Source: Candidatus Saccharimonadia bacterium
GTDB lineage: Bacteria; Patescibacteriota; Saccharimonadia; UBA4664
Direction: 5' to 3'
DNA: 64,000 nt
Assembly (NCBI GenBank): GCA_035544015.1
Contig: DATKIP010000064.1
Coordinates: 2,131-66,130, forward strand
In this document: piece after piece, positions 27,098 to 47,560 of the stretch
Layout of the letters: each line of letters opens with the position of its first letter
Numbering within the stretch: position 1 is the stretch's first letter
Program-made: the position numbers and the translations under genes
Notes under the pieces: generated by a model
Told to the model about the DNA's origin: nothing
Seen by the model: only the letters and a program-made list of their open reading frames with translations
The model's database searches: none

Positions 27098-27211
27098 GCG
27101 TAGAACAATATCATAATCGTATAATGCGTAAAATATATACAAAAACAGAGAAACCGACCAAAAATGTATAGATATTTGACATTTTGTATAGTTTTAGTGC
27201 AAAATCTAAGC

Positions 27212-27943
27212 ATGCCTAAAAACAACAATTTAGTTCCGATAAGTGAGGCCGCAAAGTATTTGGGTGTTACGGTTATGACCTTACGGCGCTGGGATGAGTC
27301 AGGGAAGCTGCCGGCTCTTAAGAGTCCCGGCGGTCACCGATACTATCACCGAGACGCGCTTGAACGTTATAACGCCGAGCTTTTTAGATTGGCCCAAATA
27401 TGGGCAGCAAGTGACGTGGCGCCAAATCTCCCGCCGGCAGACTACTCCGATACGCAGGATAGATTTAGGGCCAGGTTAGACCGAATGGCCAATCTTATAA
27501 ACCAAAACCCCGAAACATCCGTAGCGGCATCTCTAGTTACTGCGATGGCAGGAGAAATAGGTAATAATTCATTCGACCATAACTTAGGAAATTGGCCCGA
27601 TATCCCAGGCCTATTTTTCAGTTACGATCTAAATAGGCGCATCGTTGTACTAGCCGACCGAGGGGTGGGAATTAAAGCGACATTATTGAGGGTGCGTCCA
27701 GAAATGAAAGATGATATTGAAGCACTAACGGTTGCTATGACAGAGTTTGTATCTGGCAGAACCCCCGAACAAAGAGGAAATGGCCTGAAGTTTGTGCGGA
27801 CAGTAGCGACACAGAATCCAATAGGAATTGCTTTGCAGTCGGGTGTAGCAATCGCCACAATTGAGAAGGAAGGTCCTAAAGAACTAAGAGTAAGGCTTGC
27901 AGATCACTTCATTCGCGGCACATTAGCTAGAATTGAGTATTAA
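27212..27943 (+). CDS. MerR-type HTH fused to a GHKL (RsbW/SpoIIAB-like) ATPase/kinase domain
   Basis: MerR/excisionase-like HTH ISEAAKYLGVTVMTLRRWDESG. N-box EIGNNSFDH, G1 DRGVGI, G2 GNGLKF. Low-GC, AT-rich upstream region. Confidence 0.6.
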   Translation: MPKNNNLVPISEAAKYLGVTVMTLRRWDESGKLPALKSPGGHRYYHRDALERYNAELFRLAQIWAASDVAPNLPPADYSDTQDRFRARLDRMANLINQNPETSVAASLVTAMAGEIGNNSFDHNLGNWPDIPGLFFSYDLNRRIVVLADRGVGIKATLLRVRPEMKDDIEALTVAMTEFVSGRTPEQRGNGLKFVRTVATQNPIGIALQSGVAIATIEKEGPKELRVRLADHFIRGTLARIEY

Positions 27944-27945
27944 TT

Positions 27946-28212
27946 ATGAGAATCGAACTAAAAAAATTCGGAGATGTTCTTACTTCCCGCCCAGCGGGCA
28001 AAGAGGCCTTTGCGGCAATACTCCCAACATTAAACCCCAACGAAAGCAATGTAGAGATCGACTTTAGTAGCGTTATTTCTCTTGCACCCTCTTGGGCTGA
28101 CGAATTCTTCAGAGCATTAGAGGAACTCTATGGGGATCGAGTTATCTATATGCCAAGTGATAATCCGTCTGTAAAAGCTACGCTGGCTATTATTCGTGAT
28201 CAAGCAAAATAG
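27946..28212 (+). CDS. STAS-like domain protein (DUF4325 family), partner of the upstream GHKL gene
   Basis: 88 aa with an EIDFSSV motif (conserved DF of DUF4325); 2-bp spacing from the upstream gene. Confidence 0.55.
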   Translation: MRIELKKFGDVLTSRPAGKEAFAAILPTLNPNESNVEIDFSSVISLAPSWADEFFRALEELYGDRVIYMPSDNPSVKATLAIIRDQAK

Positions 28213-30206: not shown

Positions 30207-30998
30207 TTAGAAGTGAGCCAGTACGTCCTCAACGCATTCTGCTAATCTGGTTAGAGTTGGGATTAGCGGCTCGGAGTGAACGATGCCATCAACATTAAAA
30301 GCGAGCTGAATATCAAACTGTGTATCATCGTGCGACGTGTCGCCTGAAGGAGTCGAGAAAAGTACGACTCCTTCGGATATCACCACTTTATCGTCTGGGA
30401 CTAACCCAATCTGCACGGATGGGGTATCCTGCGTCCACTCCATGCCTGGCTCATCAGCAAATGCTTTGCGGAAGTGAGCGCCAAGGTCTACCACCACAGC
30501 CTGATGATTGGCCGAGATAGATAGCATGAAATGGTGTTTATCGGTGATATCCAGCTTGTGAATCAACCAAAGCGAGTTATTCCCGCCCTCGTATGGGGCA
30601 AGGCCAGTAATCGTAGCGATATGCTCGGAAGACATTCCTCGGGTTTTTTGTAAGACGCCGTTAGCGTATGATTCGGCATCCTTAAATATCGGAAACTCGG
30701 TGGCTCGCCCAGGATCGACACCATTGGACAAGATAAGGGCGTAGTTTAAATGATCGAGCGCAGTACGCAAATTATGTATCACATCACCGGCTTGCGTTTG
30801 CAGTTCTGCCGGGATTTCCCGAACCGAAACCACCTGCCATTCTCGTAACCCTGTTTTTTTGTTATCAACAATGGCTACGTCATAGGGTCTGCTACCGTAA
30901 AATAACTGAGTCGTATTAGTCATCTCGCCCAATAGAATTTTTGCCCGCTCAAGCTTATGTCGGGCACTATTCAGGTTTGGCTGTGCGCTTGCTTCCAT
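30207..30998 (-). CDS. Hypothetical protein with HEPN-like Rx4H motif, in a low-GC patch
   Basis: NLRTALDHLNYAL contains R-x4-H in a helical context; no other recognisable domain. Confidence 0.4.
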   Translation of the reverse strand: MEASAQPNLNSARHKLERAKILLGEMTNTTQLFYGSRPYDVAIVDNKKTGLREWQVVSVREIPAELQTQAGDVIHNLRTALDHLNYALILSNGVDPGRATEFPIFKDAESYANGVLQKTRGMSSEHIATITGLAPYEGGNNSLWLIHKLDITDKHHFMLSISANHQAVVVDLGAHFRKAFADEPGMEWTQDTPSVQIGLVPDDKVVISEGVVLFSTPSGDTSHDDTQFDIQLAFNVDGIVHSEPLIPTLTRLAECVEDVLAHF

Positions 30999-31149: not shown

Positions 31150-31295
31150 AACCTAACAAAGAACCCAACATAGGGCACTAGGATGCTGACATAGAGAAAT
31201 AGCTTATGCCTAACAAAGAACCTAACATACAACTAACATAGAGTTGACATAGAACCTAACATAGAGTAAAATAGAACCTAACATAGAATTAGAGG
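31150..31295. repeat. Iteron-like array of direct repeats (core AACATAGA / GAACCTAACATAGA, at least 7 copies)
   Basis: Examples: CCTAACAAAGAACC[C/T]AACATA x2; GAACCTAACATAGA x2; ...gacatagag...; ...taacatagag.... Seen directly upstream of the wHTH gene. Confidence 0.55.
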
Positions 31296-31300
31296 AAGAT

Positions 31301-32335
31301 ATGGGCTTAAAAGAACAAATCTTAGAAGTAGCCGAGGCTAAAAAGCACTTTAAGACGGCCGACGTAATGGCCGCCATTAACGATGGCGCCGCTCGTTCGT
31401 ATGTCAGTACAGTAATTAACTCAATGGTATCCGATGGCGCCCTAGTTAGGGAAGGCTCGGGCAGATGGTCTATTTATGCCTTGCCAAAATACGCAGACAC
31501 ACTAGGCAAGAGAATAAAAAAGCGCTTGGCTAACGTCAGCCTTGAAGAATATGAAGTCTTTGACGCTATTAAGAAAGAAAAGCCTTTCTTAAATACCCTC
31601 AGAGAGAATATTCAAAGCGTTCTTGCATATGCTTTCTCAGAAATGCTTAACAATGCCATTGAGCATTCGGGAAGTAAAAACATTGAAGTTGAAATCCAGC
31701 AGCAAAAAGATAACCTCACCTTTGTCGTGAGAGATTTCGGCGTAGGAGTGTTTAGAAATGTTATGGCTAAGCGAGGGCTTGCTTCGGAACTCGAAGCCAT
31801 ACAAGACCTTCTAAAAGGAAAAACTACCACCGCACCTCAAGCCCATTCGGGTGAGGGCATTTTCTTTACTTCGAAAGCCGGCGACCTCTTTGTGCTTGAA
31901 AGCTATGGGCTGAGACTGCGCATTGATAATGTTATTAATGACGTATTTGTAGAGGAAGTTAAGGCTGACGTTCGAGGGACACAAGTTACATTTCAAATCA
32001 GCACAAAATCCAAGCGCCATCTGAGCGAAGTCTTTGCAGGATATCAGGTTGACCCGGAAGAACCTGCCTTCGACCAGACAGAAGTAAAGATTAGACTTTA
32101 CACAATGGGGACAATATATGTCTCAAGGTCTCAGGCTCGAAGAGTCTTAGTAGGACTCGATAAATTCAGAAGAATTATTTTGGACTTTGATAAGGTGCCA
32201 ACGGTCGGACAGGCCTTCTCTGATGAGATATTTCGCGTATTCCAATCCAGACATCCAGAAATCGAAATCGCCCCGGTCAATATGAATGACGCCGTCAAAT
32301 TTATGGTCGGTCGTGTAGATAAACCAACAAAATAA
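31301..32335 (+). CDS. Winged-HTH + GHKL ATPase/kinase + STAS-like (DUF4325) fusion protein
   Basis: N-terminal wHTH (VMAAINDGAARSYVSTVINSMVSDGALVRE). N-box EMLNNAIEHS, G1 DFGVGV, G2 GEGIFF. C-terminal DUF4325-like ILDFDKV. Low GC (~42%). Confidence 0.6.
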   Translation: MGLKEQILEVAEAKKHFKTADVMAAINDGAARSYVSTVINSMVSDGALVREGSGRWSIYALPKYADTLGKRIKKRLANVSLEEYEVFDAIKKEKPFLNTLRENIQSVLAYAFSEMLNNAIEHSGSKNIEVEIQQQKDNLTFVVRDFGVGVFRNVMAKRGLASELEAIQDLLKGKTTTAPQAHSGEGIFFTSKAGDLFVLESYGLRLRIDNVINDVFVEEVKADVRGTQVTFQISTKSKRHLSEVFAGYQVDPEEPAFDQTEVKIRLYTMGTIYVSRSQARRVLVGLDKFRRIILDFDKVPTVGQAFSDEIFRVFQSRHPEIEIAPVNMNDAVKFMVGRVDKPTK

Positions 32336-32351: not shown

Positions 32352-32426
32352 TTATTCATCAAATAATTCCTGGCTCCGGAGGTCGGGCTCGAACCGACGA
32401 CCAATTCGTTAACAGCGAACTGCTCT
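32352..32426 (-). tRNA. tRNA-Asn (anticodon GTT) with encoded CCA
   Basis: Manual fold of TCCGGAGTAGCTCAGTGGTAGAGCAGTTCGCTGTTAACGAATTGGTCGTCGGTTCGAGCCCGACCTCCGGAGCCA: 7-bp acceptor stem, D-arm GCTC/GAGC, anticodon loop CTGTTAA, T-arm GTCGG/CCGAC with TTCGAGC loop. Confidence 0.85.
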
Positions 32427-32606
32427 ACCACTGAGCTACTCCGGATCACAATGTGGGCTGGCCCCATCGGGTGATACTACGAGATTATAGCGATGCGACT
32501 CGGCCTGGTCAATCACTGCGCAAAAAAGCGGCCAGAGATTACCTCTAGCCGCCGGGGGTGTGGAGACCGTTCGCTCCCATGCCCCCATCTCGTCTTGAAC
32601 GCGCGG

Positions 32607-33014: not shown

Positions 33015-33157
33015 ATTGCTCACCCTCTCGGTCAAGGTTCAGGACAAACCGCATTATAACATAAAACAAAGATAAATACTAGGATTCGACCCCACCAGAG
33101 TCCTGTATTATTTGGGATTTTCCCTATATAATGGGCAAACTTACTGAGGAGGTCGAA

Positions 33158-36100
33158 GTGAACCGCTTGAAACGTGCCGCTGCAATTGCCCTGATCGCCC
33201 TACTAACCCTATCCGGTCTCACGCTGCCCGTGCCCGGCGCACACGCCTCCACCCCCACCGGCTCCTCGATCAACACCCACACCGTCATGGTCGACGATCA
33301 AAGCAAAATCGTGTCGTGGGTGCCCAACCAAGACCAGGCCTATGCCACCGTGGCCGCCAGCGCCTGGAATTTCCTCCTTAATAACGTCCCCACCGACGAG
33401 CACGGCCTGCCTGGCTTCTACACCCACTCCTACTTCAACCCCGACACGCGTGAGCTGTCGTTCAACCCCCACAACCCGGCCGGCACCAATGCCATGCTCA
33501 CCGAATCCGCGCTCCAATACTACCAATATTCCGGTGACGCCCGCGTGCTCACGCTGGTCGAAAATTCCGTCACATACCACCTGGATCACGGCATGACTGC
33601 TGCCGGCGACAATTGGTCAAACGTACCCTACGCCAGCAGCGATTACGGCAACACCACCTACGCCGGCGCTAGCCGCGGCAATTCCGACGGCGTCGGTGAC
33701 GGCGTGGGCGTGATCGAGCCCGACAAAGTCGGCGAGCTCGGCGTCGCCTTCGTGCAGCTGTACAAGATCACCGGCGAGCAGAAGTACCTCACCGCCGCCA
33801 TCAATGCTGCCAATGCCCTCGCCAGCCACGTGCGCGCCGGCAACGCCACCCAGTCGCCGTGGCCCTTCCGCGTGAAGGCCTCCGACAACACCATCAAAGA
33901 GCAATACACCGCCCACACCATCAGCCCCATCGAGCTGCTCGACAATCTCATTGCGCTCGGTCAGGGCAACACCGCCTCGTATCAGTCCGCCCGCACCACC
34001 GCCTGGAACTGGCTCATGCAGTACCCTATGCAAAGCAACAACTGGAGCACCTACTTCGAGGACGTCGATTTCCATCCCGGCGCCAATAACAACACCCAAA
34101 TGAACTCCATAATGACCGCCCGCTACCTCTTGCAGCACCCCGAGTACGACGCCAACTGGGAGACGCACGTGCGCGGGCTGATCGCCTGGACCGAGCAAAA
34201 CTTTGCCGTACCCGCTTTCGGCGCCAACACCATCCAGGAACAGGCCGATTTTGCCCACCCCATGGGTAGCCACACCAGCCGCTACTGCGATGTGAACGCC
34301 TTGCTCTACCAGCGCACCGGCGACCTCGCTGCCAAAGAAAAAGCCTACCGCGCCTGCAACTGGGCCACCTACATGGCCCGCGACAACGGCGTGGTCATTG
34401 ACGGCCCCGAGATCAACAACGCCTGGTTCACCGACGGCTACGGCGACTTCATCCGCGGCATGATGGTAGCCATGGGCGGTTCGCCCGACTTCGCCCCCGC
34501 CGGCCAAAACCACCTGCTCCAAACCAGCTCCGTGGTCACGAACGTCACGTACGGCCCGTCGCAGCTCAGCTACTCCGCCTTTGAGGCCGCCGGCACCGAG
34601 GTCATCAAAGTCGCCAGCGCCCCCACCGGCGTCGCGATCAATGGCGTTAGCCTCGCTCAGCGCAGCGACCTGGCCGCCGAGGGCTGGACCTACGACGCCG
34701 CTCAAAGCGTGGTACGCGTGCGCCGCGATACGGGCAAAAACGTCACCATCGCACTCAACGGTACCCCCACCAACCTGCTTCCCAACGTGAGCCTCAGCAC
34801 CGGCGCCACCACCTACACCGCACCGGCCAGCTTCAACGTCACGGCCGCCGCCAGCGACCCCGACGGCACCATCACCAAGGTCGAATTCTACCAAAACGGC
34901 GCCCTCGTGAGCACTGTCACCACCACGCCTTATACCTTTGCCGCCGCCGCTCTACCCGCCGGCAGCTACGCCTTCAGCGCTCGCGCCTACGACAACCAAA
35001 ACGCCAGTAGCAACTCCAATACCGTTAGCGTCACCGTCAACGGTGCCTCCCAGGGTGGTACCTGGACCGGCGCCGACATTGGCACCACCGGCGTAGCCGG
35101 CTCCACTGCTGCCGCGGGCAGCGCCATTACCGTGAAGGGTGGCGGCACCGATATCTGGGGCACTGCCGACTCGTTCCAATTCGGCTACCAGCAAATGACC
35201 GGCGACGGCGAGATCAAAGCCCGCGTCGTCACGCAGCAAAACACCGACCCCTGGGCGCTAGCCGGCGTCATGATCCGCGACACCCTCGCCCCCGGCGCCA
35301 AAGAGACGCTAGCCGCCATGACCCCCGGCCACGGTGCAGCCTTTGACTACCGCACCGCCACCGGTGGCAGCACCACTTACGTCAACGGCGCCGCGGCCAC
35401 CGTGCCATATTGGATGCGCCTCGTGCGCGCCGGCACCACCATTACCGCCTCCAAATCCACCAACGGCACCGCCTGGACCAGCATGGGCAGTGCTACCGTT
35501 AGCCTCGGCACCACCGCCTACGTTGGCCTGGCCGTCACCTCGCACAACCCGTCCGCGCTCGGCACCGCCACCTTCGACAACGTCAGCTTCACCGGCCAGT
35601 CCACTGCCGACACCACCCCGCCCGTCATCTCGGGCATAAGCGTCTCCGGCGTGAACCCCAACGGCGCCACGGTCAGTTGGACCACGAGCGAGCCCGCCAC
35701 CTCGCAGATCGAATTCGGTCCCACCACCGCGTATGGCAGCTCCACCACGCTCAACAGCAGCCTGGCCACTGCTCACACCCAGGTAGTTCCCGACCTGGCC
35801 TCCGCCACCACTTACCACTACCGCGTCAAATCCGCCGACGCCGCGGCCAACCTGGCCACCTCGGCCGACAACACCTTTACCACCCCTACTCCGGCCGACA
35901 CCCAGGCCCCGTCGGCCCCCACCGGCCTCACCGCTACGGCCATTAGCTTTACCCAGGCCAATCTAAACTGGACCGCCGCTACCGACAACGTCGCCGTCAC
36001 CGGCTACCAGGTCTTCCGCGACGGCGTCCAAATCGGCACCGCCACGGGCACCACCTTTAGCGACGCCGCCCTCACCTTCAACACGAATTACACCTACACC

Positions 36101-37909
36101 GTGCGCGCCGTCGACGCGGCCGGCAACGTTTCGCTCGATTCTAATGCGGCCGCTATCACCACCCCCACGCCCGACACCCAGGCTCCCAGCGTACCCACCG
36201 GCCTCACCGCCAGCGTCACCCTGCCCAACCAAGTTGACCTCAGCTGGACCGCCGCCGCCGACGACACCGCTGTCACAAAATACCTCGTGAAGCGAAACGG
36301 CGCCGTCATAGCTCAACCCACCGGCACCACGTTCTCCGACACCACCGCCACCGGCGGTAGCACCTACAGCTACGTCGTGGCCGCCGCCGACGCCGCCGGC
36401 AACACATCGGCCAGCTCCGACCCAGCCACCGCCACTGTTCCCGACACCACCGCCCCCACCGCGCCCGTGAGCCTCACCGCCACGGCCGTTGCCGGGCCGC
36501 AAGTCAACCTATCCTGGGGCGCCTCCAGCGATGCCGTCGGTGTCACCAGCTACCTCATCTTCCGCGACGGCCAACCCCTCGACACCGCCACCGGCACGAG
36601 CTACTCGGACGCTAATGTAGTAACCGGCACCACCTACAATTACACGGTCGAAGCCACCGATGCCGCCGGTAACCTCTCCGCTGCCTCCAACACCGCCACC
36701 ATTACACCTCCCGTGCCCGACACCCAAGCGCCCACCGCGCCCACCGGTCTCACCGCCACGGCTGTCAGCTTCACCCAGGTGAACCTCGCCTGGACCGCCG
36801 CTACCGACAACATCGCCGTCACCGGCTACCAAATCTTCCGCGACGGCGCCCAGGTCGGCACCACCACTGGCACCACCTATGCCGACACCGCCCTGCTAGC
36901 CGGCAACAGCTACGCTTACACCGTGCGTGCCACCGATGCCGCCGGCAACCTTTCGCCCGCGTCCAACACCGCCACGGCCACCACGCCCACGCCCGACACC
37001 ACGCCGCCGTCGGCCCCCAGCGCCCTCACCGCCACCGCGCCCACCGGCACGCAGGTCAACCTCAGCTGGACCGCCAGCACCGACAACGTCGGCGTCACTC
37101 GCTACAATGTCCTGCGCGGCGGAACCCAAATCGGCACCACTACGAGCACGAGCTATGCCGACACCACGGTCGCCGCCGGCACCAGCTACTCCTACACTGT
37201 GACTGCCCAAGACGCCGCCGGCAACGTGAGCGCCGCGTCCAACACCGCCACCGTCACCACGCCGGCCCCGGTCGTCACGCTCGCCGTCGACACCCAAGTG
37301 GCCGTCCACACCACCACGGCCGCTACCACCATCACCTCGCCGGCCTTCACCACCGCCGGCCCAGGCGAGCTCCTCGTAGCCTTCGTCTCCTCCGACGGCC
37401 CCAGCGGCGCCTCCACCTTTAGCTCCGTCACCACCACCGGCCTCACCTGGACCCTGCGCAAGCGCCAAAACACCCAGGCCGGCACCTCCGAGATCTGGAC
37501 CGCCCCGGCCGCCGCCAAGCTCACGAATGCCACGGCCAAAGCCACCCGCACCGGTTCCTACCGCAGCTCCCTCGTCGTCACCGCCTTCAAGGGCGCCGAC
37601 CTCACGACCATCGGCGCCACCGCCGGAGCCAGTGCCGCCACCGGCGCCGCCACTGCCAGCCTCACCACCACCCGCGCGGGTTCCTGGGTCTGGGCCGTTG
37701 GCAACGACTGGGACAACGCCGTCGCCCGCACGGTCGGTACCGCCCAAACCAAAGTCGATGAGTTCCTCACGAGCACCGGCGACACCCTCTGGGTCCAGCG
37801 CCGCACCGCCGTCACCCCGGCCGCCGGCACCGTTGTTACCATCAACGACACCGCCCCCACCGCCGACCGCTACAACCTGGCGCTCATCGAGATTCTGCCC
37901 GCTCCATAG
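33158..37909 (+). CDS. Giant secreted multidomain protein: (alpha/alpha)-toroid-like N-terminal domain, Ig-like domain, concanavalin-like lectin domain, 6 FN3 repeats, and C-terminal beta-rich domain
   Basis: Signal peptide after the GTG start (GAGGAGG SD); the ORF track starts at ATG 33131, right after TATATAAT. FN3 repeats ...TGLTAT..L.WTAATDNVAVTGYQ.FRDG.... The lectin-like domain is GGTWTGADIG...GTATFDNVSFTG. Confidence 0.75.
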   Translation: MNRLKRAAAIALIALLTLSGLTLPVPGAHASTPTGSSINTHTVMVDDQSKIVSWVPNQDQAYATVAASAWNFLLNNVPTDEHGLPGFYTHSYFNPDTRELSFNPHNPAGTNAMLTESALQYYQYSGDARVLTLVENSVTYHLDHGMTAAGDNWSNVPYASSDYGNTTYAGASRGNSDGVGDGVGVIEPDKVGELGVAFVQLYKITGEQKYLTAAINAANALASHVRAGNATQSPWPFRVKASDNTIKEQYTAHTISPIELLDNLIALGQGNTASYQSARTTAWNWLMQYPMQSNNWSTYFEDVDFHPGANNNTQMNSIMTARYLLQHPEYDANWETHVRGLIAWTEQNFAVPAFGANTIQEQADFAHPMGSHTSRYCDVNALLYQRTGDLAAKEKAYRACNWATYMARDNGVVIDGPEINNAWFTDGYGDFIRGMMVAMGGSPDFAPAGQNHLLQTSSVVTNVTYGPSQLSYSAFEAAGTEVIKVASAPTGVAINGVSLAQRSDLAAEGWTYDAAQSVVRVRRDTGKNVTIALNGTPTNLLPNVSLSTGATTYTAPASFNVTAAASDPDGTITKVEFYQNGALVSTVTTTPYTFAAAALPAGSYAFSARAYDNQNASSNSNTVSVTVNGASQGGTWTGADIGTTGVAGSTAAAGSAITVKGGGTDIWGTADSFQFGYQQMTGDGEIKARVVTQQNTDPWALAGVMIRDTLAPGAKETLAAMTPGHGAAFDYRTATGGSTTYVNGAAATVPYWMRLVRAGTTITASKSTNGTAWTSMGSATVSLGTTAYVGLAVTSHNPSALGTATFDNVSFTGQSTADTTPPVISGISVSGVNPNGATVSWTTSEPATSQIEFGPTTAYGSSTTLNSSLATAHTQVVPDLASATTYHYRVKSADAAANLATSADNTFTTPTPADTQAPSAPTGLTATAISFTQANLNWTAATDNVAVTGYQVFRDGVQIGTATGTTFSDAALTFNTNYTYTVRAVDAAGNVSLDSNAAAITTPTPDTQAPSVPTGLTASVTLPNQVDLSWTAAADDTAVTKYLVKRNGAVIAQPTGTTFSDTTATGGSTYSYVVAAADAAGNTSASSDPATATVPDTTAPTAPVSLTATAVAGPQVNLSWGASSDAVGVTSYLIFRDGQPLDTATGTSYSDANVVTGTTYNYTVEATDAAGNLSAASNTATITPPVPDTQAPTAPTGLTATAVSFTQVNLAWTAATDNIAVTGYQIFRDGAQVGTTTGTTYADTALLAGNSYAYTVRATDAAGNLSPASNTATATTPTPDTTPPSAPSALTATAPTGTQVNLSWTASTDNVGVTRYNVLRGGTQIGTTTSTSYADTTVAAGTSYSYTVTAQDAAGNVSAASNTATVTTPAPVVTLAVDTQVAVHTTTAATTITSPAFTTAGPGELLVAFVSSDGPSGASTFSSVTTTGLTWTLRKRQNTQAGTSEIWTAPAAAKLTNATAKATRTGSYRSSLVVTAFKGADLTTIGATAGASAATGAATASLTTTRAGSWVWAVGNDWDNAVARTVGTAQTKVDEFLTSTGDTLWVQRRTAVTPAAGTVVTINDTAPTADRYNLALIEILPAP
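35900..37270 (+). repeat. Tandem array of five near-identical FN3-encoding repeats (~270 bp each), plus one diverged copy upstream
   Basis: Recurrent DNA blocks CCGACACCCA(G/A)GC.CC...ACCGGCCTCACCGC and protein blocks DTQAPSAPTGLTATA...; it is intragenic. Confidence 0.7.
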
Positions 37910-46540: not shown

Positions 46541-47560
46541 ATGAAGTTTGTGCGACCCAAGAAGGTTGTATTTTGCAACAACAAAGGCGGAGTGGGCAAA
46601 ACCACTCTAGCATTTCATATTGCCGTTGAATTTTCCAAGAAAGGCTACAAGACTGCACTCATCGACCTCGACCCCCAATGTAACCTGACACTTCAGGCGC
46701 TGAGCCACACATTTTACGAAGATAATCTGTTTACCGAGAATCAGAGAACGGTTTATGACGTGCTCAAGCCAAAAATAGACGGTAGCGGCGATATAGACGC
46801 CTCTATTAATCTCACCCATGTGCGGGAGAATCTCTACATTTTACCCGGCGATATCCAACTTTCGCTTTTCGAGAATATACTGATTGCCAGCTATAATGAA
46901 GCCGCCGCAGGCAACCCGCGAGGGTACTCGGACACGAGCGCCATTGATCGCTACCTAAACGAAGTCGGCGCACGCGAAAAAGTCGATATCTTCATTATCG
47001 ATACCTCCCCGAGCTTAGGGGTTCTAAACCGAGTAATTTTCCTGGGGGCGGAATACTTCGTGGTTCCCGTGACTCCTGATAGCTACAGCGTCCAAGGTAT
47101 AAAAAACCTCGGCAGTGTTTTTGAGATATGGAAAAAGCAATGGAACAATACCGCCAAAGCAGCGGTAGTCGCAGGAAGTACGCCCAGCAATCAGGTCCTC
47201 AAGGGTGACGCCCTCTTTATCGGCTATATCTTGAACTCCTTCAATACATACGACAAGAAGATTGTTAAACGACAGCGGGATTGGACAGAAAACATCCCCG
47301 TAGAGGTCAAACAATATCTATCCGAAAAGCACGGCAGAAATGGGCTTGTAGAAAGGAGCTGGAGTACGCCACTTGGCTCGCTGCAAGATTATGGGCAGTT
47401 GCCTGCAATCTCTATGGAAAACCATTTGGCGATTCAGGAATTTGACCGTGCTAAGGTCCCCGAGCTCAATCTTAAGGGCACCAAGGAGCTACAAGAAAAA
47501 GCCGTCATCGAGATCGACGCCGTGAGTGATAGAATAATCAAGGTACTCGAAAGCTACTAG
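46541..47560 (+). CDS. ParA/MinD-family P-loop ATPase (orphan), low GC
   Basis: Deviant Walker A NNKGGVGKTT; IDLDPQ; ~47% GC against a ~65% genome background. Confidence 0.8.
   Translation: MKFVRPKKVVFCNNKGGVGKTTLAFHIAVEFSKKGYKTALIDLDPQCNLTLQALSHTFYEDNLFTENQRTVYDVLKPKIDGSGDIDASINLTHVRENLYILPGDIQLSLFENILIASYNEAAAGNPRGYSDTSAIDRYLNEVGAREKVDIFIIDTSPSLGVLNRVIFLGAEYFVVPVTPDSYSVQGIKNLGSVFEIWKKQWNNTAKAAVVAGSTPSNQVLKGDALFIGYILNSFNTYDKKIVKRQRDWTENIPVEVKQYLSEKHGRNGLVERSWSTPLGSLQDYGQLPAISMENHLAIQEFDRAKVPELNLKGTKELQEKAVIEIDAVSDRIIKVLESY

What the first reader, a model, noticed from the sequence alone, without database searches (positions are those of the whole stretch)
27212..28212. Split HTH + GHKL ATPase gene paired with a stand-alone STAS-like (DUF4325) gene: a partner-switching-like module built on a DNA-binding protein
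An RsbW/SpoIIAB-type GHKL kinase/ATPase domain (N, G1 and G2 boxes intact) is fused to a MerR-type HTH. It is followed 2 bp later by an 88-aa STAS-like protein with the DUF4325 DF motif. This mirrors the anti-sigma / anti-anti-sigma partner switch, but with the ATPase tethered to DNA rather than to a sigma factor. The pair sits in a low-GC, AT-rich patch and has a fused paralog 3 kb away, a Rosetta-stone arrangement that supports a functional interaction. It may be a regulatory or conflict system, e.g. a phage-sensing switch.
Basis: partly seen in the sequence, partly recalled or inferred. Interest (0 to 1): 0.75.

Follow-up and report, generated by a model that had tools for sequence, protein, structure and literature searches.

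The report
DNA-binding kinase-like switch with STAS partner
Two adjacent genes, conserved together across the ultra-small Patescibacteria (CPR), encode a DNA-binding protein fused to an anti-sigma-type ATPase/kinase domain and a small STAS-fold partner; the DNA-binding protein almost certainly binds repeats in its own promoter, so this looks like an undescribed partner-switch wired directly to DNA rather than to a sigma factor.

Summary

A and B are adjacent in 82 of 82 loci. They occur in at least 469 species genomes, almost all Patescibacteria, with no other conserved neighbour. They are essentially absent from phage and plasmid collections.

New here: direct repeats TG[T/C]ATAG[A/T]T, phased at 10 or 20-21 bp, bracket the -35 box upstream of A in 68 of 78 loci. 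The variable base covaries perfectly with A residue 22, which aligns with base-contacting Lys26 of BldC, across about 11 independent switches. A therefore very probably binds its own promoter.

Phosphorylation or binding of B, and how that controls A, is inferred only. The "fused paralog" at 31301-32335 shares the domain plan but is not a close paralog or a conserved neighbour. Defence is not supported. Verdict: a new variant of a partner-switching module.

The parts
27133..27141 (-). Inverted operator-like copy (TGTATATAT, 1 mismatch), about 79 bp upstream of the ATG. Also present in the closest relatives L001 and L006.
27165..27173 (+). Operator repeat 1, TGTATAGAT, ending 2 bp upstream of the -35 hexamer.
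   Evidence: Exact match. Phased repeats are conserved in 68 of 78 loci against 0.85 in shuffles. This is the only phased pair in the 64-kb window.
27176..27181 (+). -35 hexamer TTGACA of the A-B promoter.
   Evidence: TTGACA is conserved between the repeats in homologous loci.
27185..27193 (+). Operator repeat 2, TGTATAGTT, inside the promoter spacer and 20 bp from repeat 1.
27200..27205 (+). -10 hexamer CAAAAT. It ends 6 nt before the ATG, so the mRNA is probably leaderless or nearly so.
27204..27212 (+). Degenerate inverted operator copy ATCTAAGCA. Relatives have ATCTATACA just before the ATG.
   Evidence: Read from the sequence; weak in this window.
27212..27943 (+). Gene A, 243 aa: HTH-GHKL protein.
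27230..27370 (+). MerR/excisionase/BldC-like winged HTH (residues 7-53). The recognition helix is residues 21-30. The Met22 codon (27275-27277) is the specificity-determining position.
27518..27940 (+). SpoIIAB/RsbW-like GHKL (Bergerat-fold) domain, residues about 103-243. N box E115-H123 (27554-27580), G1 D149-G153 (27656-27670), G2 G189-K193 (27776-27790).
27946..28212 (+). Gene B, 88 aa: stand-alone DUF4325, STAS fold. Invariant residues are L12, S14, R15, G18, F40, P48, S49, E53, F54, N73, S75.
31301..32335 (+). Gene C, 344 aa: wHTH + HATPase_c_2 + DUF4325 in one chain. It is a separate CPR-wide family with the same domain logic, not part of the A-B operon.
31160..31295 (+). Array of about 6-8 direct repeats ([TC][AG]ACATAGA) upstream of gene C. 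Homologues carry GTT[GT]ACAAT arrays.

Best explanation
A and B form a self-contained, autoregulated two-gene switch specific to Patescibacteria.

A binds head-to-tail, BldC-style, through its MerR/excisionase-type winged HTH to direct repeats TG[T/C]ATAG[A/T]T. These repeats bracket the -35 box and fill the spacer of its own promoter, so A most likely represses the A-B operon. Whether it controls a wider regulon is unknown.

A's C-terminal domain is a catalytically intact-looking SpoIIAB/RsbW-type GHKL module. B is its STAS-fold partner. By analogy with SpoIIAB-SpoIIAA and RsbW-RsbV, B docks on the GHKL domain and is bound (ADP state) or phosphorylated on a conserved Ser (ATP state). This changes the oligomeric or cooperative state of A on sites two helical turns apart, and so changes promoter occupancy. 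The partner switch is thus read out directly on DNA, without a sigma factor.

Shown here (comparatively or in silico): the domain folds, the catalytic-motif conservation, the obligate A-B linkage, the operator, and the operator/residue-22 recognition code.

Inferred only: the A-B physical interaction, kinase activity, the phospho-acceptor, the sign of regulation, and the physiological signal (possibly the ATP/ADP ratio).
For: - Catalytic motifs. E115, N119, H123, D149, G151, G153, G189 and N190 are invariant, and G191 is nearly invariant.
- Linkage. B lies directly downstream on the same strand in 82 of 82 loci, with no other conserved neighbour.
- Operator. 68 of 78 loci have at least 2 phased repeat copies, against 0.85 in dinucleotide shuffles. 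Spacings peak at 20-21 bp (79 cases), 10-11 bp (20) and 40-42 bp (8). Sites sit at -10 and +10 relative to the start of the -35 hexamer.
- Recognition code. Operator base 3 against A residue 22 gives T with M/A/Q/T (28), C with D (31 of 31) and GGTAG-type with N/S (6). Mutual information is 1.35 bits, equal to the full class entropy. The next informative column scores 0.66; one at 0.81 is almost all gaps. About 11 concordant independent switches occur on an NJ tree.
- Structural logic. Residue 22 aligns with BldC Lys26, and R26 with BldC Arg30. These are the two major-groove base-contacting residues in BldC. H42 aligns with the wing residue His46 (alignment; PMC5859096).
- The same GHKL + DUF4325 combination occurs in cis in family C.
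Against: - No experiment supports any step, and no multimer model could be run.
- Pfam HATPase models do not reach threshold on A.
- No PP2C phosphatase or sigma factor is a conserved neighbour, so a full phosphorylation cycle is not evident.
- The Ser at the SpoIIAA-Ser58-like position (S49) aligns with an Ala in the fused family C. It could simply be a helix N-cap.
- Sequence-level comparison of B with SpoIIAA and RsbV gives no signal.
- Only its own promoter carries a phased operator pair in this 64-kb window, so a transcriptional output beyond autoregulation is undemonstrated.
- The module appears absent from the cultured Saccharibacterium S. epibionticum ML1 (the table may be truncated), so it is not universal.
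Confidence: 0.5

Rival explanations
1. Kinase-output model. A is mainly a Ser kinase whose real target is B or other proteins. Unphosphorylated B then acts on an unknown third partner, as SiaC does on SiaD. The HTH serves only to autoregulate operon dosage.
Against: No conserved third gene is present. The HTH, the operator and their co-evolution are maintained over the whole phylum, and operator arrays of 3-5 copies suggest more than simple dosage control. This model overlaps with the main one and cannot be separated from it in silico.
Confidence: 0.2
2. Toxin-antitoxin, defence or conflict module. The GHKL kinase acts as an effector held in check by B, with HTH-mediated autorepression as in HipBA-like systems. 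It is mobile and activated on phage attack.
For: It is a self-contained, autoregulated two-gene cassette in variable genomic contexts. Its GC is atypical in high-GC hosts. The HTH resembles PADLOC mad1 (E 3.7e-14).
Against: The PADLOC hit is confined to the generic HTH. NCBIfam MAD1 scores 16 bits against a cut-off of 80. B has no PADLOC hit. There is 1 hit in 2.9 million viral contigs and none covering at least 80% of A in plasmids or phages. No locus held more than one A copy, and A is 45-90% identical across CPR classes, unlike fast-evolving patchy TA or defence genes. Neighbours are housekeeping or unrelated.
Confidence: 0.1
3. The GHKL domain is a non-kinase ATP-driven dimerisation clamp or ATP sensor (MutL/GyrB/MORC-like logic). 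B is a structural cofactor that is never phosphorylated.
Against: The best structural matches by a clear margin are the small anti-sigma Ser kinases, and the best match of B is SpoIIAA. There is no transducer domain. Three invariant Ser residues in B (S14, S49, S75) are compatible with phosphorylation.
Confidence: 0.15
4. A is an excisionase or recombination directionality factor of an integrated element, as some databases name it ('excisionase family DNA binding protein').
Against: No integrase or recombinase is a conserved neighbour. The protein carries a 140-aa GHKL domain. The repeats are positioned on its own sigma-70-type promoter. The match is only to the shared HTH_17 fold.
Confidence: 0.03

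Closest known systems
SpoIIAB-SpoIIAA and RsbW-RsbV partner-switching pairs (anti-sigma Ser kinase + STAS antagonist)
   Same: The GHKL fold of the small anti-sigma type is the best structural match for A, and the STAS fold of the antagonist is the best match for B. The genes are adjacent and co-oriented. N, G1 and G2 ATP-binding residues are conserved, and a conserved Ser sits at the N-terminus of helix alpha2 of the STAS protein.
   Different: The kinase is fused to a DNA-binding HTH. No sigma factor or PP2C phosphatase is linked. B belongs to DUF4325, not Pfam STAS/STAS_2, and is shorter (88 aa, lacking the last beta-alpha unit). A is below threshold for Pfam HATPase_c_2. The output is predicted to be direct promoter binding.
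BldC of Streptomyces (MerR-like wHTH binding direct repeats head-to-tail; PMC5859096)
   Different: BldC is a 68-aa stand-alone HTH that contacts its neighbour on abutting repeats. A carries a 190-aa C-terminal extension with a GHKL domain, and its repeats are mostly 20-21 bp apart. NCBIfam HTH_BldC scores 29.9 bits against a cut-off of 77.
SiaB-SiaC (and similar partner switches with non-sigma outputs)
   Different: SiaABCD includes a PP2C phosphatase and a diguanylate cyclase target. Here there is no third conserved gene, and the kinase itself binds DNA.
wHTH-HATPase_c_2-DUF4325 single-chain proteins (gene C of this window; annotated 'DUF4325 domain-containing protein' or 'anti-sigma regulatory factor')
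   Same: The order is the same: DNA-binding domain, then GHKL, then STAS-like. The family is also CPR-wide and also preceded by arrays of phased direct repeats.
   Different: The HTH is of a different class (winged helix, weakly Penicillinase_R/AbiEi-like). Its GHKL is recognisable by Pfam. The DUF4325 is fused rather than separate. It matches A only at the motif level (hhalign E 0.016), and the operator word differs.

Membership tests
GHKL / Bergerat-fold ATPases, anti-sigma Ser-kinase branch (Pfam HATPase_c_2) | Bergerat alpha/beta sandwich fold | tested here: met
GHKL / Bergerat-fold ATPases, anti-sigma Ser-kinase branch (Pfam HATPase_c_2) | N box (E-x3-N-x3-H), G1 (DxGxG) and G2 (GxG) nucleotide-binding motifs | tested here: met
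   E115, N119, H123, D149, G151, G153, G189 and N190 are invariant in 44 homologues, and G191 is nearly invariant. The motifs are colinear with those of family C.
GHKL / Bergerat-fold ATPases, anti-sigma Ser-kinase branch (Pfam HATPase_c_2) | Score above the Pfam gathering threshold for HATPase_c or HATPase_c_2 | tested here: not met
   No hit for A at E up to 1. Distant family members reach only about 16 bits against cut-offs of 26-27. The PDB sequence profile finds only HTH proteins.
GHKL / Bergerat-fold ATPases, anti-sigma Ser-kinase branch (Pfam HATPase_c_2) | ATP binding and Ser phosphotransfer to the STAS partner | not testable with these tools
   Needs biochemistry.
STAS-fold anti-sigma antagonists / DUF4325 | Pfam DUF4325 (PF14213) above the gathering score | tested here: met
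   28.6 bits against 23, residues 20-64. NCBI names the identical protein 'DUF4325 domain-containing protein'.
STAS-fold anti-sigma antagonists / DUF4325 | STAS (SpoIIAA-like) fold | tested here: met
STAS-fold anti-sigma antagonists / DUF4325 | Conserved phosphorylatable Ser/Thr at the N-terminus of helix alpha2 (SpoIIAA Ser58, RsbV Ser56) | tested here: inconclusive
   S49 (PSW[GA]DEF) is invariant in 79 sequences and lies in the first turn of helix 48-65. The aligned residue in family C is Ala305.
Partner-switching system (kinase + STAS + PP2C phosphatase + sigma or other target) | Adjacent kinase and STAS genes | tested here: met
   82 of 82 loci.
Partner-switching system (kinase + STAS + PP2C phosphatase + sigma or other target) | Linked PP2C (RsbU/SpoIIE-type) phosphatase and a sigma-factor or other protein target | tested here: not met
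   Clustering all ORFs within 5 kb either side in 80 loci finds no family shared by more than 6 loci other than A and B. Phosphatases elsewhere in the genomes could not be checked.
BldC-like / MerR-N-terminal (HTH_17, excisionase-type) DNA-binding domains | Pfam MerR/HTH_17 and NCBIfam excisionase-domain model above cut-off | tested here: met
   MerR 43.9 (28.2), HTH_17 44.2 (27), TIGR01764 40.1 (28.8).
BldC-like / MerR-N-terminal (HTH_17, excisionase-type) DNA-binding domains | Binding to direct repeats as head-to-tail multimers | tested here: met
   Comparative only. Same-strand repeats are phased at 10 or 20-21 bp in 68 of 78 loci and covary with the residue equivalent to BldC Lys26. No binding assay was done.
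BldC-like / MerR-N-terminal (HTH_17, excisionase-type) DNA-binding domains | NCBIfam HTH_BldC subfamily score | tested here: not met
   29.9 bits against a cut-off of 77.
Known anti-phage defence systems (PADLOC-DB 2.0) | Match of the system's signature proteins | tested here: not met
   A matches only mad1 and MTase_II models over its HTH (residues 6-58). B has no hit. C has only weak hits (E above 1e-3).

The most novel reading that the evidence does not exclude
A-B is a Patescibacteria-specific, sigma-independent partner switch. An RsbW-type kinase is hard-wired to DNA, and its occupancy of phased direct repeats is set by a STAS partner and the cell's ATP/ADP state. It would then be one of the very few lineage-wide transcriptional regulators of these reduced, host-dependent bacteria, perhaps gating growth against dormancy or host attachment. 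It has a readable one-residue/one-base recognition code, which allows its regulon to be predicted in any CPR genome. Together with the fused family C, it would define a new class of HTH-GHKL-STAS transcription factors.
Probability: 0.3. Interest if true: 0.8.

Novelty: new variant of a known kind. Interest (0 to 1): 0.66.

Why it matters
Patescibacteria (CPR) make up a large share of bacterial diversity, have tiny genomes and few recognisable regulators, and are almost unstudied genetically. This pair is conserved at housekeeping-like levels in at least 469 species genomes, yet it is annotated only as 'excisionase family/HTH protein' plus 'DUF4325'.

Three results make it directly testable: A contains a hidden anti-sigma-type kinase domain, B is its STAS-type partner, and A reads a defined operator through a single specificity residue. 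Possible tests include EMSA with swap mutants, phosphotransfer assays and regulon prediction.

It also extends partner switching from 'kinase sequesters a sigma factor' to 'kinase is itself the DNA-binding regulator'. In addition, it gives the first functional handle on DUF4325.

Tried and rejected
- Sequence-only detection of the GHKL domain failed. Pfam, NCBIfam and PADLOC scans of A and phmmer and profile searches of the PDB found only the HTH. The claim rests on structure prediction plus motifs.
- A PDB profile search with the B family found nothing.
- A as a close paralog of C was rejected.
- The low-GC patch as evidence of recent transfer was rejected as specific evidence. The module is 5-12 GC points below its flanks in every high-GC host, and its GC tracks host GC. 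Its GC3 of about 0.4 remains unexplained.
- A phage or plasmid origin was rejected.
- A search for further operator pairs (a regulon) in the window found none.
- Literature searches for DUF4325, CPR partner switches and HTH-fused RsbW found nothing relevant.
- The S. epibionticum ML1 annotation table has no PF14213 or PF12728 entry. No Tn-seq information could therefore be obtained for this module.
- P0451, a possible N-terminal STAS-like fusion to an A-type GHKL, has only weak support (hhalign E 0.034, no Pfam STAS hit), so I did not use it as evidence.
- The taxonomy of the HTH-less short forms could not be obtained.
- The afdb50 fold library was unavailable.

Full report
**1. What is in the sequence**

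Two co-oriented ORFs fill the flagged interval. A runs 27212-27943 (243 aa) and B runs 27946-28212 (88 aa). They are separated by TAA-TT-ATG.

A longer reading of A from ATG 27164 (259 aa, used by some gene callers) is unlikely. A sigma-70-like promoter (TTGACA 27176-81, 18-nt spacer, CAAAAT 27200-05) and conserved operator repeats lie inside that extension. Homologues are also 240-245 aa.

The region is AT-rich. A has GC 0.47 and B 0.43, against 0.605 for the window.

B and the nearby gene C are 100% identical to proteins of a 'Candidatus Saccharimonadia bacterium' MAG on a 72.8-kb contig. The window therefore comes from a Patescibacteria (CPR) genome.

**2. Domains**

*HTH of A.* Pfam finds a MerR/HTH_17/MerR_1 helix-turn-helix at residues 9-53, above all three cut-offs. 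NCBIfam finds the excisionase-type domain model.

*C-terminal domain of A.* No sequence library recognises the remaining 190 residues. Three lines of evidence still identify them as a GHKL domain:
- An alignment of 44 homologues shows invariant E115, N119 and H123 (spaced E-x3-N-x3-H), D149-x-G151-x-G153, and G189-N190-G191-L192-K193 (G191 nearly invariant).

The GHKL assignment, and specifically the anti-sigma Ser-kinase flavour, is therefore supported by predicted structure plus motifs. It is not supported by profile score.

**3. Conservation and distribution**

- A has thousands of database relatives. The full-length family is 58-92% identical among the top 120, and named members are almost all Patescibacteria MAGs.
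These are labelled Saccharimonadales, Parcu-, Uhr-, Yanofsky-, Wolfe-, Nealson-, Roizman-, Howlettbacteria and others. A few carry doubtful bin labels.
- In the 85 loci fetched, every locus with a complete A (82) has a B homologue immediately downstream on the same strand. The start is usually within 30 bp of A's stop and sometimes overlaps it. The one apparent exception, L047, has B about 190 bp downstream, running off the contig end.
- Clustering all other ORFs within 5 kb either side found no further conserved neighbour.
- The GHKL part alone finds only 290 clusters (50% identity) among 1.84 billion representatives. It is a small, isolated family. Variants include about 195-aa HTH-less forms, one with an ArsR-like wHTH, and a few odd fusions.
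- The pair is essentially absent from mobile-element collections. There is 1 hit in 2.9 million IMG/VR contigs. No match covers more than the HTH in 72,556 plasmids or 50,697 phages.

**4. New evidence: an operator and a recognition code**

Aligning the 110 nt upstream of A in 78 non-identical loci shows a conserved architecture. Same-strand repeats T-G-[T/C]-A-T-A-G-[A/T]-T flank and interleave a TTGACA/TATAAT-type promoter.

- *Frequency.* 68 of 78 loci have at least two similar, helically phased copies. Dinucleotide shuffles give a mean of 0.85 and a maximum of 3.
- *Spacing.* Spacings cluster at 20-21 bp (79 cases), 10-11 bp (20) and 40-42 bp (8).
- *Position.* Relative to the start of the -35 hexamer, site starts peak at -31/-30, -10/-9, +10 and +30. 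One copy abuts the -35 box and the next fills the spacer.
- *In the window.* The two exact copies are 27165-27173 and 27185-27193. They form the only phased pair in 64 kb, against a random expectation of 0.07.

The variable third base of the repeat covaries perfectly with residue 22 of A, the first residue of the recognition helix:
- GTATAG goes with Met/Ala/Gln/Thr (28 loci).
- GCATAG goes with Asp (31 of 31).
- GGTAG or AGTAG goes with Asn/Ser (6).

Mutual information is 1.35 bits, equal to the entropy of the operator classes. The next informative column scores 0.66; one column at 0.81 is almost all gaps. On an NJ tree built without that column, both characters change about 11 times, always together.

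In the HMMER alignment to BldC, residue 22 is the counterpart of BldC Lys26 and R26 of Arg30. These are the two residues that contact major-groove bases in the BldC-DNA crystal structure. H42 matches the minor-groove wing residue His46. BldC binds 9-bp direct repeats head-to-tail (PMC5859096).

Asp pairing with C, and apolar residues with T, is chemically sensible (my own knowledge). I take this as strong comparative evidence that A binds these repeats and so regulates its own operon. Because the sites overlap the -35 box and the spacer, repression is the more likely sign. That last step is inference.

**5. How it most likely works**

*Shown in silico:*
- A is a BldC-like DNA reader fused to a SpoIIAB-like nucleotide-binding domain.
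- An obligate STAS-fold partner is encoded in the same, probably leaderless, transcript. In most loci with a recognisable promoter the -10 box ends 6-12 nt before the ATG.
- The system is autoregulatory.

*Inferred by analogy with SpoIIAB-SpoIIAA and RsbW-RsbV (established knowledge):*
- B docks on the ATP-lid face of the GHKL domain.
- With ATP, B is phosphorylated and released. With ADP, it stays bound.
- Because most operator copies are two helical turns apart, too far for the direct HTH-HTH contacts BldC makes, the C-terminal domains probably mediate cooperativity. B and the nucleotide state would tune this.

Candidate phospho-acceptors in B are the invariant S14, S49 and S75. S49 lies in the first turn of helix alpha2, as does Ser58 of SpoIIAA. 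However, the aligned residue in the fused family C is Ala, so this remains open. No phosphatase or sigma factor is linked.

**6. The 'fused paralog'**

Gene C (31301-32335) has a weak winged-helix N-terminus, HATPase_c_2 (E 3.6e-7) and DUF4325 (E 2.3e-12). It belongs to its own CPR-wide family at about 60% identity.

Its GHKL aligns with A's only through the motif region (hhalign E 0.016, probability 3%). Its DUF4325 aligns with B at E 2.7e-4. A-B and C are never neighbours in 160 other loci.

C supports the functional coupling of GHKL and DUF4325 at the domain level, but it is not a Rosetta-stone fusion of A and B themselves. C-family genes are also preceded by arrays of phased direct repeats. 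At least 4 copies occur in 50 of 70 loci against 5 of 70 shuffled, with spacings of 11-12 and 21-22 bp. This suggests a common design.

**7. Rivals**

- *Defence or TA cassette.* This fits the self-contained, autoregulated, context-free layout. It is contradicted by the absence of defence-model hits beyond the generic HTH, the absence from phages and plasmids, the single copy per locus and the housekeeping-level conservation.
- *Kinase-output model.* Here B or another protein is the real output and the HTH only autoregulates. A non-kinase ATP-clamp model is a further option. Neither can be excluded computationally.
- *Excisionase.* This annotation reflects only the shared HTH fold.

**8. Novelty**

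Full-text searches found no description of DUF4325-GHKL modules, of HTH-fused RsbW-like kinases, or of partner switching in CPR. The library is incomplete, so this is absence of evidence only.

I classify the pair as a new variant of a known kind: partner-switching components combined with a BldC-type direct-repeat reader. Its distribution is unusually broad and lineage-specific.

The module is not universal. The annotation table of the cultured Saccharibacterium S. epibionticum ML1 lists no PF14213 or PF12728 protein (the table may be truncated).

Noticed in passing
window 31160-31295 (upstream of gene C, 31301-32335); loci L087-L166: Gene C (wHTH-HATPase_c_2-DUF4325) has its own array of about 6-8 direct repeats ([TC][AG]ACATAGA) in the window. 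Its homologues carry 3-10 copies of GTT[GT]ACAAT spaced 11-12 or 21-22 bp apart (at least 4 copies in 50 of 70 loci against 5 of 70 shuffled). The repeat word contains a -35-like TTGACA. Whether C binds these repeats was not tested.
   Followed up: partly
window 27200-27214; loci L006-L085: In most loci with a recognisable promoter, the -10 hexamer ends only 6-12 nt before the A start codon (6 nt in the window). The A-B mRNA is therefore probably leaderless or nearly so. B starts 2 bp after A's stop with no clear Shine-Dalgarno sequence, which suggests translational coupling.
   Followed up: partly
window 27164-27211: Some database entries (for example P0001 and P0004, 259 aa) start A at the upstream ATG that overlaps operator repeat 1. 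The conserved promoter lies inside that extension, so these are probably mis-called starts.
   Followed up: yes
window 32371-32445 (-): The only tRNA in the window is a tRNA-Asn (GTT), 36 bp downstream of gene C. No integrase or repeat was looked for.
   Followed up: no
window 30207-30998 (-): A 263-aa ORF in a low-GC stretch (GC 0.49) between the A-B and C modules has no hit in Pfam, NCBIfam or PADLOC.
   Followed up: partly
window 46541-47560 (+): A second low-GC patch (GC about 0.51) holds a 339-aa ORF with a ParA/Soj-type deviant Walker A motif (KGGVGKTT), read by eye. It was not run against profile libraries.
   Followed up: no
window 33131-37909 (+): A 1592-aa ORF has an N-terminal signal-like segment and many about 90-aa tandem modules ('APSAPTGLTATA...W...D(N/A)VGVTGY...'), resembling Fn3-type repeats of a surface protein. 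This was read from the translation only.
   Followed up: no
proteins P0362, P0373, P0374 etc.; P0378; P0451: The A-type GHKL family includes about 195-aa forms without any HTH, and a form with an ArsR-like wHTH instead of the MerR-type one (Pfam HTH_5, E 0.016). P0451 is a 273-aa form whose N-terminus reads like a STAS motif ('IDLSKVTFIDPWGIALL'), but support is weak (hhalign E 0.034). Their genomic contexts and taxonomy could not be retrieved.
   Followed up: partly
window 27212-28212 and 31301-32335; loci with flank GC above 0.53 (L006, L029, L063, L047, L034, L055, L041, L026): In every high-GC host the A-B module is 5-12 GC points below its flanks. In the window GC3 is only 0.43 for A and 0.37 for B, which protein-level constraint cannot explain. 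It could reflect repeated transfer from low-GC CPR or selection for AT-rich DNA or mRNA.
   Followed up: partly
L047 5720-5910: In one Uhrbacteria locus, A and B are separated by about 190 bp containing a short internal repeat (it translates as 'LPAGRQ' twice) instead of the usual 1-30 bp.
   Followed up: no
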